Source: a virus | Direction: 5' to 3' (one strand) | IMG/VR virus record: IMGVR_UViG_3300029848_000009 | Length of the DNA stretch: 56,146 bases | Part shown: positions 22,880 through 47,410 of the stretch, piece after piece | How the letters are laid out: each line of letters begins with the position of its first letter | Numbering within the stretch: position 1 is the stretch's first letter | Made by a program: the position numbers and the translations under genes | Notes under the pieces: generated by a model | Databases searched by the model: none | The model's input: only the letters and a program-made list of their open reading frames with translations | What the model was told of the DNA's origin: nothing

Positions 22880-24188
<1,309 letters not shown>

Positions 24189-24207
24189 GGAAAGTGAGGT
24201 GGTTTAA

Positions 24208-24950
24208 ATGCTTATGCGTTGTTGCGGTTCATCATCGGCAGGCAACAGTTACGCTTTAATCAGCAACAGTGGCGAGATTCTTGCAATCGAAGCAGGATGC
24301 AAATTTCTTGATTTTAAGAAGATGATTGATTGGCGTATTTCTGATGTCGCAGGATGTATCGTCTCACATGAGCATGGTTAGGAGACCATGCACGATACAT
24401 AAAAGATTTCATGAAATCCGGCATTCCGGTTTATACGGCGTTTGAAACACAGACAGCACTTGAAACCATAACCGGAGAACGTACAATAGCCATTCCACCG
24501 CGCAGAACACGGCAAATTGGCAGTTTTACGGTTACTCCCTTTAATGTACCGCATGATACAGAAATCGAGTGTTATGGCTATTTAATCGAGCATGAGGAAA
24601 TGGGTAAACTGTTATTCTTGACCGACTTGGAATATTGCAAGTATGACTTTTCCGGTATGAAGGTTGAGCATATCATGGTTGAAGCCAATTACAGCATGGA
24701 CTTGGTAGACAGGAATGAGCCAAATTACGAACACCGTTTGCGAGGTCATATGAGCCTTGATACGGCACTTAAATTTATTCAGACGAACGACAACCCAGCT
24801 TTACGAAATGTCGTTTTAATACACTTATCGGACACAAGCGGAAATCCCGCGTTATTCCTACAACAAACGAAAGAAACAATTAAATATGGAGCAAATGTTT
24901 ATGTTGCAGAAAAAGGGCTAGAGGTTGATATGAACCTTTGTCCGTTTTGA
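24208..24950 (+). pseudogene. MBL-fold metallo-hydrolase interrupted by 5 nt (tagga) inside the HxHxDH motif; frames 24208-24381 and 24384-24950
   Basis: The upstream frame ends ...CIVSHEHG-TAG. The downstream frame begins DHARYIKDFMKSGIPVY. Joined, they read SHEHGDH. Confidence 0.75.
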
Positions 24951-25659: not shown

Positions 25660-26007
25660 TTGAAATTATGTGAATACTGTATGGTTGAATTTGAGCCGAA
25701 GCGACCAGATCAAAAATACTGTAGACCAAAATGTGCCAAAAGATACGCACAGTTTAAGAATTTTAAAAAGGCTGGAAGAATTGTGTATACAAGAATATGC
25801 CCGAAATGTGGCAGGCTGTTTATGACGATAGATGAACGAAAAGTTGATTGCCAAGACTGCATCGGCAATGAAGTTAAAGAACGCTTGAGAAAGCCAAAGA
25901 AAAAGGACGATGCAATCAAGGCTGTGAATCATATGGCGTGCGCTTCTGGTATGAGCTACGGAAAGTTTGTGGCTCAAATGAGCATGAAGCCATTGGAGAG
26001 GAAGTGA
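25660..26007 (+). CDS. Zinc-ribbon protein
   Basis: TTG start after GGAGGTAAAAAT. CEYC...CRPKC and CPKCG...CQDC pairs. Confidence 0.55.
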   Translation: MKLCEYCMVEFEPKRPDQKYCRPKCAKRYAQFKNFKKAGRIVYTRICPKCGRLFMTIDERKVDCQDCIGNEVKERLRKPKKKDDAIKAVNHMACASGMSYGKFVAQMSMKPLERK

Positions 26008-26621
26008 TTGGGGTGGATTATAAGAAATTTAGACAGGCAAAAGCCATCGAAGCCAAAAATAAACAGAAGTGGCTTGCGTTGAATCCGAAACTGAATGATG
26101 AAAGCGGAATATACTTCTTACTTCGTGAGGATGAAAATGGTTTCCGGTATGCGTATATCGGGCAGGCACTGCATATAATCAGCAGATTGTGTAGCCACCT
26201 TACAGGCTATGAACAACACATAGACCTTAGTTTGCGGAAGCATAAGTTGTACAACGAGAGCGACAATCCTTATGGTTGGCGAGTTGAATTTCTGAATTTC
26301 TCAGAGAGCCAGCTTGATAAAAAGGAGAAATATTACATCAAGTTATATGCAGATAAAGGCTATCAATTGCGTAATGTCAGTTTGGGCGGTCAAGGAGAAA
26401 ATCGCGCAAGTGGTTCAATCGGAGAAAGAAAAGTGGTCAAAGGTTATATGCGGGGCGTACAACAAGGCAAAAAGACTCTTGCCAAGGAATTATCGCATAT
26501 CGCTGAAAAGCACCTCGAAATCCGCTTAAAGCCGGAGAAACAGGGTAACAAAGTTTCTGAAAAGCAGTATGAGAAATTTATGGCTTTGATTTCTGAAAAT
26601 ACATATGAGGAGAGTGATTGA
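26004..26621 (+). CDS. GIY-YIG nuclease domain protein (free-standing homing-endonuclease-like)
   Basis: GIYFLLREDENGFRYAYIGQA...R...H...EKYYIKLY...LRN matches GIY-YIG spacing. Start is GTG 26004 or 26013 after GGAGAGG; track ATG 25938 is unlikely. Confidence 0.65.
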   Translation: MIGVDYKKFRQAKAIEAKNKQKWLALNPKLNDESGIYFLLREDENGFRYAYIGQALHIISRLCSHLTGYEQHIDLSLRKHKLYNESDNPYGWRVEFLNFSESQLDKKEKYYIKLYADKGYQLRNVSLGGQGENRASGSIGERKVVKGYMRGVQQGKKTLAKELSHIAEKHLEIRLKPEKQGNKVSEKQYEKFMALISENTYEESD

Positions 26622-46521: not shown

Positions 46522-46592
46522 TGGGCTATCGCCAAACGGTAAGGCACAGGATTTTGATTCCTGCATTCCGGGTTCGAATCCCGGTAGCCTAA
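46522..46592 (+). tRNA. tRNA-Gln (anticodon UUG)
   Basis: Acceptor TGGGCTA/TAGCCTA. Anticodon stem CAGGA/TCCTG with loop TTTTGAT. T arm CCGGG-TTCGAAT-CCCGG. U1-A72 is typical of bacterial tRNA-Gln. Confidence 0.85.
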
Positions 46593-46819
46593 TCGGTTGC
46601 ATGTTGACGTTTCATGTAGCCACGTATGTTTTCCATACGTACTTGAACCCTTGGTTGAGTGATTCAAGCATTTGGGTTCCTCCTTTCGCCACTAGGACGA
46701 TTCTGTTAAGGACGGTGCGAGACCGTCCGGTGGTATTCTATCATGCGTCTATCCCACGGCGCATGATCGTGTAACGCATAGCACGTAAAACATATTGCTA
46801 ACCGTCTCGTGGCGGTTAT

Positions 46820-46890
46820 GATCGGTTAGTCGAGCGGTAAGACACCACCCTTTCACGGTGGTAACACGAGTTCAAATATCGTACCGATCA
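46820..46890 (+). tRNA. tRNA-Glu (anticodon UUC) with a non-canonical T arm
   Basis: Acceptor GATCGGT/ACCGATC. Anticodon stem CCACC/GGTGG with loop CTTTCAC. T arm ACGAG-TTCAAAT-ATCGT has a G53-A61 mismatch. Confidence 0.6.
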
Positions 46891-46896
46891 TTGTAT

Positions 46897-46968
46897 TGGG
46901 ATTTAATTCAGTGGTAGAAGACACGGCTTATATCCGGGTTGTCGCGGGTTCGATTCCTGCAATCCCAA
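46897..46968 (+). tRNA. tRNA-Ile-like (anticodon UAU)
   Basis: Acceptor TGGGATT/AATCCCA. Anticodon stem CACGG/CCGGG (one A-G mismatch) with loop CTTATAT. T arm GCGGG-TTCGATT-CCTGC. Confidence 0.55.
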
Positions 46969-47108
46969 CGCGTTGTAAAATATTGTTTATGTGACAAGGC
47001 TGACGAGTTTTGGTGTAATGAATGATGTTTTTCTTGTGATGGAAGCGTTGTCGACTTAAAAAGCGTGGAAATAGGACGATGAAAGTTCGTTTACGATATA
47101 TAGAAAAT

Positions 47109-47196
47109 TTTGCAGTGTTCCCATAACGGTATTGGAACGGCTTGCTAAGCCGCCGGGCGTTTGTTCGCCTTGCAGGTTCGAATCCTGTGTACGGCG
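47109..47196 (+). tRNA. tRNA-Ser(GCU)-like pseudo-tRNA (long variable arm, acceptor strands do not pair)
   Basis: Loop TTGCTAA at 47142-47148. Variable arm GGCG/CGCC. T arm GCAGG-TTCGAAT-CCTGT at 47172-47188. The 5' tttgcag and 3' gtacggc strands are not complementary. Confidence 0.3.
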
Positions 47197-47410
47197 TTTG
47201 CTCGAAAAAATCGGGCGTTGATATGTGGCGAAAAAGGTAAACGCTATTGCCGTAAGATAATTCGTTGAAACCGGCAACCTAGATGACGAGAAGTGCACTA
47301 ATCATGCATGGTGCAAATCCATGCCATATCAATTCAATTACATTTATTACACACAAAAGACGCGGAATCTCACGAGGATTCCGATTTTTGCTATGATTGG
47401 GGGCGTAAGA

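What the first reader, a model, noticed from the sequence alone, without database searches (positions are those of the whole stretch)
24364..24392. 5-nt interruption GGT-TAG-GA inside the HxHxDH motif of an MBL-fold gene: candidate stop-hop translational bypass
Frame 1 reads ...VSHEHG and then TAG (24379-24381). Five nt after the GGT codon (24376-24378), frame 0 continues GAC CAT GCA = DHARYIKDF... Skipping exactly tagga gives SHEHGDH, a perfect metallo-beta-lactamase HxHxDH motif. Simple -1 slippage (possible only between 24372 and 24381) would give HEHGLGDH and break the motif.

The architecture mimics known hops:
- a Gly take-off codon (GGT) is followed immediately by UAG
- a Gly landing codon (GGA, 24381-24383) abuts the next sense codon
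- the take-off codon sits in the 5' arm of a 7-bp hairpin, gcatggt (24372-24378) with accatgc (24385-24391)
- the hairpin loop UAGGAG contains an SD-like AGGAG

The alternative is a recent 5-bp insertion, making this a pseudogene.
Basis: partly seen in the sequence, partly recalled or inferred. Interest (0 to 1): 0.6.

Follow-up and report, generated by a model that had tools for sequence, protein, structure and literature searches.

The report
Ribosome hop site in phage hydrolase
A gut-phage enzyme gene is broken inside its catalytic motif by a stop codon plus two bases, and about 170 related loci keep the same "codon, stop, matching codon" interruption under selection, so ribosomes most likely hop over it: a kind of decoding that a 2016 review says has been shown only in artificial constructs.

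Summary
Window 24208-24378 encodes 57 residues ending SHEHG. TAGGA (24379-24383) interrupts the gene, and GAC CAT at 24384 continues it in another frame to 24950.

It is not a pseudogene or an artefact:
- The identical junction occurs in at least 10 independent assemblies.
- 168 related loci carry a gap at this exact site. Gap lengths are 5, 6 (in frame), 8 or 11 nt.
- Every gap starts with a stop codon.
- All but the TGAGC/TGAGT class end in a codon synonymous with the one before the stop: GGT..GGA/GGC/GGT, CTT..CTA, and CAA..CAG in two cultured Cellulophaga phages.
- Both gene halves evolve at dN/dS of about 0.1-0.2, the same as uninterrupted relatives.
- 143 of 146 complete gapped genes have no other lesion.

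Only a hop that re-pairs the peptidyl-tRNA downstream gives HxHxDH in every class.

An HNH endonuclease gene lies directly upstream in 35 of 149 gapped loci and in 0 of 259 uninterrupted ones. This recalls T4 gene 60 and MobA. The window itself has no such gene.

Earlier notes of this scan describe the same phenomenon on other genomes.

The parts
24194..24207 (+). Leader with the Shine-Dalgarno-like GAGGTG (24196-24201), 6 nt before ATG 24208
   Evidence: Read from the sequence. The same leader, GAAAGTGAGGTGGTTTAAATG, precedes both gapped and uninterrupted relatives, so it is the gene's native ribosome-binding site.
24208..24378 (+). Part 1 of the MBL-fold hydrolase gene: 57 codons, MLMRCC...CIVSHEHG
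   Evidence: ORF list. Of 27 clusters of short proteins, 22 end in H-x-H-G at this same point. Within the TAGGA class dN/dS is 0.15.
24376..24378 (+). Take-off codon GGT (Gly), in the P site when the stop enters the A site
   Evidence: GGT preceded by CAT occurs in every genuine HEHG-type gapped relative, even when the search pattern left both codons free. The 80 uninterrupted close relatives examined (L012-L091) use GGA and CAY.
24379..24381 (+). Zero-frame stop codon TAG, directly after the take-off codon
   Evidence: In genuine relatives every gap of 1-14 nt begins with TAG, TAA or TGA.
24379..24383 (+). 5-nt coding gap TAGGA, read as skipped during translation
   Evidence: Gap classes at this site: TAGGA 87, TGAGC 27, TAGGC 4, TGAGT 1, TAAGGA 32, TAAGGC 4, TAAGGT 3, TGATCGGA 2, TGAACGGA 1, TAATCCATGGA 4, TAATCCATGGC 2, and CTT-TGAGGGAGCTA 1. 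The Cellulophaga phages add CAA-TGACAG.
24381..24383 (+). Landing triplet GGA (Gly); its first base is the last base of the stop codon
   Evidence: The landing triplet is synonymous with the take-off codon in every class except TGAGC/TGAGT. Within classes it varies only at the third base, GGA/GGC/GGT.
24384..24950 (+). Part 2 of the gene: resume codon GAC, then 188 codons DHARYIKDF...NLCPF and stop TGA 24948-24950
   Evidence: dN/dS is 0.11. D58 and H59 are invariant in 30 diverse homologues. The first ATG in this frame (24411) lies after the Asp-His metal ligands.
24372..24391 (+). Inverted repeat gcatggt/accatgc (hairpin); judged incidental
   Evidence: Fold. Across 43 distinct junction sequences the pairs vary only by G-C to G-U, with no change on both sides. 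The outer helix 24354-24362/24392-24400 holds in only 20-43 of the 43. The CTT and CAA classes lack the repeat.

Best explanation
The gene at 24208-24950 encodes one 245-residue metallo-beta-lactamase-fold phosphodiesterase of the YhfI / ELAC / PhnP / Apyc1 kind. It is made by a short programmed translational bypass, a 'stop-hop'.

Proposed mechanism:
1. The ribosome decodes ...S-H-E-H-G.
2. With peptidyl-tRNA(Gly) on GGU in the P site, the stop codon UAG enters the A site. Termination is slow relative to what follows.
3. The peptidyl-tRNA lets go of GGU.
4. The mRNA moves 5 nt, and the tRNA re-pairs with GGA (24381-24383).
5. Decoding resumes at GAC.

The product reads SHEHG-DHARY, with an intact HxHxDH metal site. 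Ribosomes that terminate instead release a 57-residue fragment.

What is shown: the gap architecture, its conservation, the codon covariation and the purifying selection.

What is inferred: the hop itself, its efficiency and its purpose.

The likely origin and purpose are also inferred. The gap may be an insertion that alters the DNA of the most conserved motif of the gene, so that a neighbouring HNH homing endonuclease no longer cuts its own genome, as in T4 gene 60 and MobA. The hop would make such an insertion harmless. This window keeps the gap but has no HNH gene.
For: 1. **One site, many alleles.** Of 442 surveyed loci, 168 have a gap exactly between the x and D codons of HxHxDH and 274 have none. 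No locus has a gap elsewhere in the junction. Gapped alleles include ones only about 45-50% identical to the window: L113/L271, L272 from Lactonifactor longoviformis DSM 17459, and L354-L356.

2. **Variable length, fixed architecture.** Gap lengths are 5, 6, 8 and 11 nt. The downstream frame is therefore -1, 0, -1 and -1 relative to the upstream frame, yet the arrangement is always take-off codon, stop, 0-6 nt, landing codon, GAY CAT. One protein lineage can hold two lengths, for example TAAGGC and TAATCCATGGC, or TAGGC and TAAGGA.

3. **Covariation of take-off and landing codons.** The pairs are GGT..GGA/GGC/GGT, CTT..CTA (L354) and CAA..CAG. The last is in the cultured phages Cellulophaga phi18:3 and phi46:3, whose sister phage phi13:2 reads CAA GAT uninterrupted. 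Landing codons change only at the third base.

4. **The gap always starts with a stop.** When gaps of any sequence were allowed, every gap in a genuine relative began with a stop. Gaps beginning with a sense codon occurred only in unrelated chance matches.

5. **Purifying selection on both halves.** Among 48 distinct gapped alleles the median dN/dS is 0.108 for part 1 and 0.107 for part 2. Within gap classes the values for part 1/part 2 are 0.15/0.11, 0.20/0.11 and 0.27/0.07, against 0.19/0.10 for uninterrupted relatives. Of 146 complete gapped genes, 143 have no other lesion.

6. **Only a hop keeps the motif.** H54, E55, H56, D58 and H59 are invariant in 30 homologues of 34-89% identity. The model of the uninterrupted form is confident (pLDDT 93.6) and is an MBL fold.

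7. **No start codon for a separate second chain.** TAG- and TAA-type alleles have no start codon that would include the Asp-His ligands (TTA GGA GAC; the first ATG is 24411).

8. **HNH association.** A NUMOD4/HNH_3 gene (Pfam) lies directly upstream in 35 of 149 gapped loci and in 0 of 259 uninterrupted loci (Fisher 3e-17). Among close relatives the counts are 31 of 98 against 0 of 102.

9. **Precedent.**
   - Low-level stop-hops between matched codons are known from constructs (PMC5009743).
   - Peptidyl-tRNA(Gly) can land on all four GGN codons in gene 60 constructs (10.1101/2024.12.09.627546).
Against: - No protein, ribosome-profiling or mass-spectrometry evidence exists. Read and RNA data could not be consulted.
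- The TGAGC/TGAGT class (28 loci) has AGC/AGT at the landing position. That is not a Gly codon and offers at most two of three pairs. In all TGA-type alleles the sequence NNT TGA creates a TTG start overlapping the stop, so those alleles could instead make two chains.
- Synthetic stop-hops are described as low-level, and no stimulatory signal was found here. The hairpin and the SD-like motif are by-products of the coding sequence.
- If the gap spreads by homing, part of the low dN/dS could have accumulated while the alleles were still intact.
- Most gapped loci came from pattern searches that fixed CATGGT. Only the last scan and the protein-based look-ups are free of that bias.
- The tree may be confounded by recombination within the gene.
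Confidence: 0.72

Rival explanations
1. Selfish-element casualty. The gap is only a protective change of a homing-endonuclease target. It spreads by gene conversion into a dispensable accessory gene and inactivates it. On this view gapped alleles are young pseudogenes that are continually re-created from intact ones.
For: - The HNH gene is found only next to gapped alleles.
- Gapped and uninterrupted alleles are intermingled at the tips of the tree.
- Recombination inside the gene is common.
- The enzyme is an accessory gene, and many relatives do without the gap.
Against: - A purely protective insertion needs no stop codon and no landing codon synonymous with the preceding codon. Yet six or more gap classes and three amino-acid pairs keep exactly that arrangement.
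- Landing codons change only at the third base.
- 114 of 149 gapped loci lack the HNH gene, but they still show dN/dS of 0.07-0.27 within classes that share the same gap.
- 143 of 146 complete gapped genes have no other lesion.
- Gapped lineages are deep: L272, L271 and L144 sit on long branches.
Confidence: 0.12
2. A different recoding event gives a protein with extra residues in the motif: a -1 (or +2) ribosomal frameshift at GGT-T in this window, or stop-codon readthrough in the in-frame relatives. The window's product would be HEHG-LG-DH.
For: - The downstream frame is the -1 frame, and a stop in the A site can stimulate shifting.
- In the -1 frame the changes TTA to TTG and GGA to GGC are synonymous.
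Against: - There is no slippery sequence. tRNA(Gly) would have to re-pair from GGU to UGG.
- The insertion would be 2, 2, 3 or 4 residues in the 5-, 6-, 8- and 11-nt classes. It would sit inside a motif whose spacing is invariant in all 274 uninterrupted loci and in Pfam PF12706.
- No single shift fits both the in-frame 6-nt classes and the out-of-frame classes.
- The match between take-off and landing codons would go unexplained.
Confidence: 0.07
3. Split enzyme. The two ORFs are translated separately, by termination followed by re-initiation, and assemble into a two-chain hydrolase. T4 gp39 and gp60 do this across a split metal site.
For: - All TGA-type alleles (TGAGC, TGAACGGA, CTT-TGAGGGAGCTA) have TTG overlapping the stop (TTGA). 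Gene callers start the second ORF there, giving MSDH..., MNGDH... and MRELDH....
- The gene 60 precedent for a split metal site is described in 10.1101/2022.08.31.505936.
Against: - The window and all TAG/TAA-type alleles, which form the majority (87 + 4 + 39 + 6 loci), have TTA or no start codon at that place.
- The first start in the window's downstream frame (ATG 24411) removes the Asp-His ligands.
- The synonymous landing codon would be unexplained.
Confidence: 0.06
4. Sequencing or assembly artefact, or a private recent 5-bp insertion (a plain pseudogene).
For: Taken alone, a 5-nt frameshift in one contig looks like either of these.
Against: - The identical junction is in 10 independent samples.
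- It is also in 43 IMG/VR contigs, in an isolate genome and in complete genomes of cultured phages.
Confidence: 0.01

Closest known systems
Synthetic 'stop-hops' in E. coli reporters (Weiss, Dunn, Atkins and Gesteland 1987, +5 and +6 hops; summarised in PMC5009743)
   Same: Matched codons flank a stop codon. The peptidyl-tRNA leaves the first and re-pairs with the second a few nucleotides downstream. The stop and the landing triplet give no residue. Both +5 and +6 geometries are described, as found here (GGT TAG GA and GGT TAA GGA).
   Different: Those cases are artificial, low-level and without biological use. PMC5009743 (2016) states that no natural in-frame stop-hop is known. Here the arrangement is natural, sits in a catalytic motif, and is conserved under selection in about 170 loci, including cultured phages.
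Phage T4 gene 60 bypass cassette with the MobA HNH homing endonuclease (10.1101/2022.08.31.505936; PMC5462505)
   Same: - A Gly take-off codon is followed directly by UAG, with a matched Gly landing codon.
- The gap lies in a conserved region of a phage enzyme gene.
- An adjacent HNH homing endonuclease is linked to the gap.
- The bypass insert protects the carrier genome from MobA.
- Some lineages keep the gap after losing the endonuclease, as this window does.
   Different: - The gene 60 gap is 50 nt and needs a nascent-peptide signal, stem-loops and a mini-SD. Its efficiency is about 40-50% (PMC10732093; 10.1101/2022.08.31.505936).
- Here the gap is 5-11 nt and no separate signal was found.
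- The host gene is different and there is no sequence homology.
- The HNH gene lies upstream of an unsplit gene rather than inside it.
- Cleavage specificity has not been tested.
Streptomyces phage Hau3 terminase, 10-nt inserts bypassed at UUA (PMC10732093)
   Same: A short coding gap (10 nt, or 7 nt in a prophage) lies inside a conserved phage protein. A slow-to-decode A-site codon triggers the bypass. The argument is the same: a frameshift would add residues to a conserved junction. A junction peptide was seen by mass spectrometry in E. coli.
   Different: The trigger there is a rare sense codon whose tRNA is developmentally regulated, not a stop codon. Only three genes are known. No covarying take-off and landing pairs across many lineages are described.
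Mitochondrial byp elements of Magnusiomyces capitatus (cited in PMC5009743 and PMC10732093)
   Same: Many short inserts in coding sequences are skipped by translational bypassing, which makes the insertions harmless.
   Different: Those are in the mitochondria of a yeast, not in phages of bacteria.
Apyc1 anti-Pycsar nucleases and the YhfI/ELAC/PhnP group of MBL-fold phosphodiesterases (what the protein is)
   Same: - MBL fold with HxHxDH (PF12706).
- Foldseek matches to YhfI 6kns (E 4e-15, TM 0.74), 1zkp, PhnP 3g1p and Apyc1 7u2r/7u2s/7t28 (TM 0.66-0.69).
- 35-40% identity to phage genes annotated as Apyc1-like.
   Different: Sequence search against the PDB found no significant relative. The substrate is unknown, so the anti-defence role is only an annotation-level lead.

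Membership tests
Programmed translational bypassing (hopping) | Two ORF parts separated by a non-coding gap whose removal restores a contiguous conserved protein | tested here: met
   Removing 24379-24383 gives a 245-aa protein that is 96% identical to the uninterrupted P0001, with SHEHGDH. The same holds for the 6-, 8- and 11-nt gaps in relatives.
Programmed translational bypassing (hopping) | The landing codon, 5' adjacent to the resume codon, matches the take-off codon (peptidyl-tRNA re-pairing) | tested here: met
   In the window the pair is GGT then GGA. Relatives show GGT..GGA/GGC/GGT, CTT..CTA and CAA..CAG. The exception is the TGAGC/TGAGT class (AGC/AGT).
Programmed translational bypassing (hopping) | A slow-to-decode codon (a stop or a rare codon) in the A site at take-off | tested here: met
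   TAG lies at 24379-24381.
Programmed translational bypassing (hopping) | A full-length product that lacks the residues of the gap (junction peptide) | not testable with these tools
   This needs expression with tags and mass spectrometry.
T4 gene 60 / MobA bypass cassette | A gap of about 50 nt with a take-off stem-loop, a nascent-peptide signal and a mini-SD, located in the topoisomerase large-subunit gene | tested here: not met
   - The gap is 5 nt and lies in an MBL-fold gene.
- The hairpin is explained by the coding sequence and shows no compensatory change.
- The SD-like AGGAG is absent from most other classes.
T4 gene 60 / MobA bypass cassette | Linkage of the gap to an HNH homing endonuclease whose target it disrupts | tested here: inconclusive
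   Linkage is shown in relatives: 35 of 149 gapped loci against 0 of 259 uninterrupted, with NUMOD4 + HNH_3 domains. The window has no HNH homologue (best tblastn E 0.69). The cleavage site has not been tested.
Programmed -1 ribosomal frameshift | A slippery heptamer X XXY YYZ that allows both tRNAs to re-pair in the -1 frame | tested here: not met
   The sequence is C ATG GTT AG. Neither tRNA(His) nor tRNA(Gly) can re-pair, because the -1 codons are GCA and UGG. In-frame gapped relatives cannot be explained by a -1 shift.
Pseudogene | Relaxed selection and accumulation of further lesions | tested here: not met
   dN/dS is 0.07-0.27 in both halves, equal to that of intact relatives. Of 146 complete gapped genes, 143 have no other lesion.
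Metallo-beta-lactamase fold hydrolases (Pfam Lactamase_B_2) | HxHxDH motif, downstream His/Asp ligands and the alpha-beta/beta-alpha fold | tested here: met
   - PF12706 scores 44.8 bits against a cut-off of 27.
- H54, H56, D58, H59, H127, H179 and H204 are invariant in 30 homologues.
- The AF2 model has pLDDT 93.6.
- Foldseek gives probability 1.0 to YhfI, ELAC, PhnP and Apyc1.
- All this holds for the joined (hop) product only.
Apyc1 anti-Pycsar nucleases | Cleavage of cyclic mononucleotide signals, and orthology to Apyc1 | tested here: inconclusive
   The protein is 35-40% identical to phage genes annotated as Apyc1-like. Foldseek TM to 7u2r, 7u2s and 7t28 is 0.66-0.69, but YhfI and 1zkp score better. 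Enzyme activity cannot be tested here.

The most novel reading that the evidence does not exclude
This locus may belong to the first natural family of programmed stop-hops. These would be modular cassettes of 5-11 nt (sense codon, stop, 0-6 nt, synonymous codon) inserted into the DNA of the catalytic HxHxDH motif of phage MBL-fold genes. Ribosomes of both Bacillota and Bacteroidota would decode them by re-pairing the peptidyl-tRNA. HNH homing endonucleases would spread or maintain them as self-immunity, making this a miniature, signal-poor counterpart of T4 gene 60.
Probability: 0.6. Interest if true: 0.9.

Novelty: new variant of a known kind. Interest (0 to 1): 0.82.

Why it matters
Translational bypassing has very few natural examples: T4 gene 60 and its relatives, one yeast's mitochondria, and a candidate in Streptomyces phage Hau3. 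Short stop-hops between matched codons were found in constructs in 1987. Natural counterparts have long been presumed to exist (PMC5009743), but that 2016 review states that no natural in-frame case is known, and my searches of the held literature found none reported since.

If this reading holds, several things follow:
- Ordinary ribosomes, with no elaborate mRNA signal, would hop 5-11 nt often enough for selection to keep an enzyme gene in this form across phyla.
- Gene callers would be splitting such genes systematically. Cellulophaga phi18:3 gp020 and gp019 are annotated as two proteins.
- Some cases now read as in-frame stops, readthrough or pseudogenes could be hops.
- Homing endonucleases could be placing insertions inside codon-constrained catalytic motifs without destroying the protein.

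The set also offers natural variants in gap length, stop codon and codon pair for studying the rules of landing. Cultured systems are available for direct tests: the Cellulophaga phages and Lactonifactor longoviformis DSM 17459.

Tried and rejected
- **Read pile-ups and RNA runs.** Independent assemblies served instead.
- **Whole genome of the window.** None is held, so the host tRNA(Gly) set was not examined.
- **Sequence search of the PDB.** Only spurious hits to designed TIM barrels came back. A fold search was used instead.
- **Hairpin as a signal: rejected.** The inner stem is forced by the codons CAT GGT / GAC CAT GC, and the outer 9-bp helix is not conserved.
- **AGGAG as a signal: rejected.** It is absent from TAGGC, TGAGC, TAAGGC and TAAGGT.
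- **GIY-YIG gene at 25938-26621 as the linked endonuclease: rejected.** It is present in 59 of 73 gapped loci and 16 of 17 uninterrupted close relatives.
- **The 19 nt before ATG 24208 as a remnant of a deleted HNH gene: rejected.** The same leader precedes uninterrupted alleles.
- **Identity discordance between the two halves as a mark of a conversion tract ending at the gap: not specific.** There were 6 gapped and 8 uninterrupted cases.
- **Altered genetic code: rejected.** The window's four tRNAs (Gln-TTG, Glu-TTC, Ile-TAT, Ser-GCT) include no suppressor, and a reassigned TAG would not fix a 5-nt shift.
- **Close relatives among deposited phages.** blastn against that collection found none.
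- **Chance matches.** Matches in soil, freshwater and Planctomycetota contigs (L273, L363, L364 and others) are chance hits to the pattern and were left out.
Full report
**The observation**

The frame opened by ATG 24208 reads ...TCA CAT GAG CAT GGT (S H E H G, 24364-24378) and then TAG (24379-24381). Five nucleotides after GGT, GAC CAT GCA CGA TAC... (DHARY...) continues in another frame to TGA 24948-24950. That frame is closed just upstream by TGA 24369-24371. Any -1 shift would therefore have to occur in 24372-24381, and it would give HEHGLGDH.

Joining 24208-24378 to 24384-24947 gives a 245-residue protein. It matches Pfam Lactamase_B_2 and PHROG 392, 'metal-dependent hydrolase'. More than a hundred close homologues are uninterrupted proteins of exactly 245 residues with SHEHGDH. 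The nearest, P0001, is 96% identical.

**Not an artefact and not a private mutation**

- The window's downstream ORF is indexed in 105 blocks of the public collection.
- Ten loci from ten different samples and assemblers (L002-L011) carry the identical junction, in differing neighbouring gene contexts.
- A scan of IMG/VR for the flanks with any insert of 1-12 nt returned 43 contigs, every one with exactly 5 nt.

**The gap is conserved at one site across deep divergence**

A search with the 57-residue N-terminal fragment found 27 clusters of short proteins. Of these, 22 end in H-x-H-G at the same residue.

Their contigs, and others found by pattern and by the C-terminal fragment, show the same interruption in alleles only about 45-55% identical to the window:
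- L113/L271, the latter a Lachnospiraceae MAG
- L272, in the isolate Lactonifactor longoviformis DSM 17459
- L143, L147 and L354-L356

In a survey of 442 loci where both gene halves could be located, 274 have no gap and 168 have one, always between the 'x' and 'D' codons of HxHxDH.

In a tree of 205 distinct proteins all gapped alleles fall in one clade (support 0.93). Gapped lineages lie on the deep branches, uninterrupted ones are nested among them, and 83 outgroup sequences are all uninterrupted. Recombination within the gene is frequent. The tree therefore shows that the gap is old, horizontally spread, or both. It does not give a clean history.

**The architecture of the gap**

| Gap length | Sequence after take-off codon | Loci |
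|---|---|---|
| 5 nt | TAGGA | 87 |
| 5 nt | TGAGC | 27 |
| 5 nt | TAGGC | 4 |
| 5 nt | TGAGT | 1 |
| 6 nt (in frame) | TAA GGA | 32 |
| 6 nt (in frame) | TAA GGC | 4 |
| 6 nt (in frame) | TAA GGT | 3 |
| 8 nt | TGATC GGA | 2 |
| 8 nt | TGAAC GGA | 1 |
| 11 nt | TAATCCAT GGA | 4 |
| 11 nt | TAATCCAT GGC | 2 |
| 11 nt (take-off CTT) | TGAGGGAG CTA | 1 |

A further class is in cultured phages. Cellulophaga phi18:3 and phi46:3 read CAC GGC CAC CAA TGA CAG GAC CAT. Their sister phage phi13:2 reads CAC GGG CAC CAA GAT CAT. GenBank annotates the interrupted gene as two proteins.

The arrangement is therefore always the same: a sense codon, a stop codon, 0-6 further nucleotides, a codon synonymous with the first, and then GAY CAT. 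Three further points follow.
- The pair of codons co-varies between lineages: Gly/Gly, Leu/Leu, Gln/Gln.
- Within classes the landing codon changes only at its third base.
- A single protein lineage can hold two gap lengths, such as TAAGGC and TAATCCATGGC.

Gaps starting with a sense codon occurred only in unrelated chance matches. When the His and Gly codons were left free, the take-off context was still CAT GGT in all genuine relatives. The 80 uninterrupted close relatives examined (L012-L091) use CAY GGA.

**Selection**

- Among 48 distinct gapped alleles the median pairwise dN/dS is 0.108 for the first half and 0.107 for the second.
- Within single gap classes the ratios (first half/second half) are 0.15/0.11 (TAGGA), 0.20/0.11 (TGAGC) and 0.27/0.07 (TAAGGA).
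- Uninterrupted relatives give 0.19/0.10.
- Of 146 complete gapped genes, 143 have no other stop or frameshift.

**What decoding fits**

The gaps are 5, 6, 8 and 11 nt long, so the second half lies in the -1, 0, -1 and -1 frame.
- A -1 or +2 shift, or readthrough in the in-frame class, would insert 2 to 4 residues of varying sequence between HxHx and DH.
- That spacing is invariant in all uninterrupted relatives and in 30 homologues of 34-89% identity (H54, E55, H56, D58, H59).
- There is no slippery sequence.
- A separate second chain is possible only in TGA-type alleles, where NNT TGA creates TTG. The window and the other TAG/TAA-type alleles have TTA or nothing there, and the first ATG (24411) lies beyond the Asp-His ligands.

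One event gives HxHxDH in every class. The peptidyl-tRNA leaves the take-off codon while the stop sits in the A site and re-pairs with the synonymous landing codon. Decoding then resumes at GAY. This is the 'stop-hop' known from E. coli constructs.

The review PMC5009743 says that natural counterparts have long been presumed and that no natural in-frame stop-hop is known. Gene 60 constructs show that peptidyl-tRNA(Gly) can land on GGA, GGC, GGU and GGG (10.1101/2024.12.09.627546). My searches of the held literature found no description of this case.

**What remains unexplained**

- The TGAGC/TGAGT class has AGC or AGT in the landing position, because TGA forces the first base to be A. This allows at most two of three pairs. 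Those alleles may hop with a near-match or may use the TTG start.
- No stimulatory signal was found.
It follows from the codons CAT GGT...GAC CAT GC, shows only G-C to G-U changes in 43 distinct junctions, and is absent from the CTT and CAA classes.
  - The AGGAG is GGA plus GA and is absent from several classes.
- The efficiency of the hop is unknown.

**Link to a homing endonuclease**

- A gene with NUMOD4 and HNH_3 domains ends exactly at the ribosome-binding site of the hydrolase gene in 35 of 149 gapped loci with enough upstream sequence, and in 0 of 259 uninterrupted loci (Fisher 3e-17).
- Among close relatives the counts are 31 of 98 against 0 of 102.
- The HNH gene accompanies five gap classes.

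This parallels T4 gene 60, where the bypass insert protects the carrier from its MobA endonuclease and survives after MobA is lost (10.1101/2022.08.31.505936). The window has no HNH homologue. Its GIY-YIG gene at 25938-26621 is not associated with the gap. That the gap disrupts the endonuclease's target is an inference. Cleavage was not tested.

**What the protein is**

A model of the uninterrupted relative P0001 is confident (pLDDT 93.6, pTM 0.91). The junction lies in the loop between strand 47-51 and helix 57-60. The best structural matches are Bacillus YhfI, the ELAC homologue 1zkp, PhnP, Apyc1 (7u2r, 7u2s, 7t28) and RNase Z. Phage genes 35-40% identical are annotated 'anti-Pycsar nuclease (Apyc1-like)' or 'metal-dependent hydrolase', and often sit next to RecT. 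The substrate is not known.

**Verdict**

I put about 0.7 on a programmed hop. The main rival, at about 0.12, is that the gapped gene is a tolerated casualty of a selfish element.

The phenomenon has been noted before in this scan on other genomes: e1-3472132, e1-3646863, e1-1935047, e1-3689074, e1-2903616 and e1-3548035. I found nothing about it in the literature I could search. A tagged expression construct with mass spectrometry of the junction peptide would settle it.

Noticed in passing
window 23297-23327 (gene halves 22880-23428 and 23346-24188): An (ACAG)n tract splits the PAPS-reductase-like gene just upstream. At the same site (left flank CAATCTTA) the tract is 12 to 74 nt long in related loci. 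In L006 and L009 the gene is a single 434-aa ORF. This looks like a hypervariable microsatellite switching the gene on and off. It is already listed as finding e1-3754193.
   Followed up: partly
L135:1926-2501, L106, L108, L373 and 31 other loci: A free-standing NUMOD4/HNH_3 endonuclease gene whose last codons run into the ribosome-binding site of the hydrolase gene. It is found only in gap-bearing loci.
   Followed up: yes
L513 (NC_021794.1, Cellulophaga phage phi18:3 gp020 + gp019) and L515 (NC_021792.1, phi46:3 gp019 + gp018): GenBank and RefSeq annotate the interrupted hydrolase as two proteins. The second starts at a downstream ATG that drops the Asp-His ligands. The junction is CAA TGA CAG GAC CAT.
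   Followed up: yes
L272 (NZ_FQVI01000064.1, Lactonifactor longoviformis DSM 17459): A cultured Lachnospiraceae isolate carries a diverged gapped allele (GGT TGAGC GAC) on a 4.3-kb contig. It could serve as a laboratory system for the unexplained TGAGC class.
   Followed up: partly
window 46522-47197: A cluster of four phage tRNA genes: Gln-TTG, Glu-TTC, Ile-TAT and Ser-GCT. There is no tRNA(Gly) and no suppressor. tRNA-Ser(GCT) reads AGC/AGT, which is the triplet at the landing position of the TGAGC/TGAGT alleles. This may be coincidence.
   Followed up: no
P0143 (76 aa): One short protein reads ...CIVSHEHGNMNIKY. The same HEHG end is fused to the C-terminal residues of the upstream PAPS-reductase-like protein (NMNIKY). 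This suggests a rearrangement or chimeric contig at the junction.
   Followed up: no
L390 and L434: Two gapped loci (TAAGGA and TGATCGGA) have a shortened second half, 63 and 110 residues. They lie on short contigs, and it is unclear whether this is real decay or a contig-end effect.
   Followed up: no
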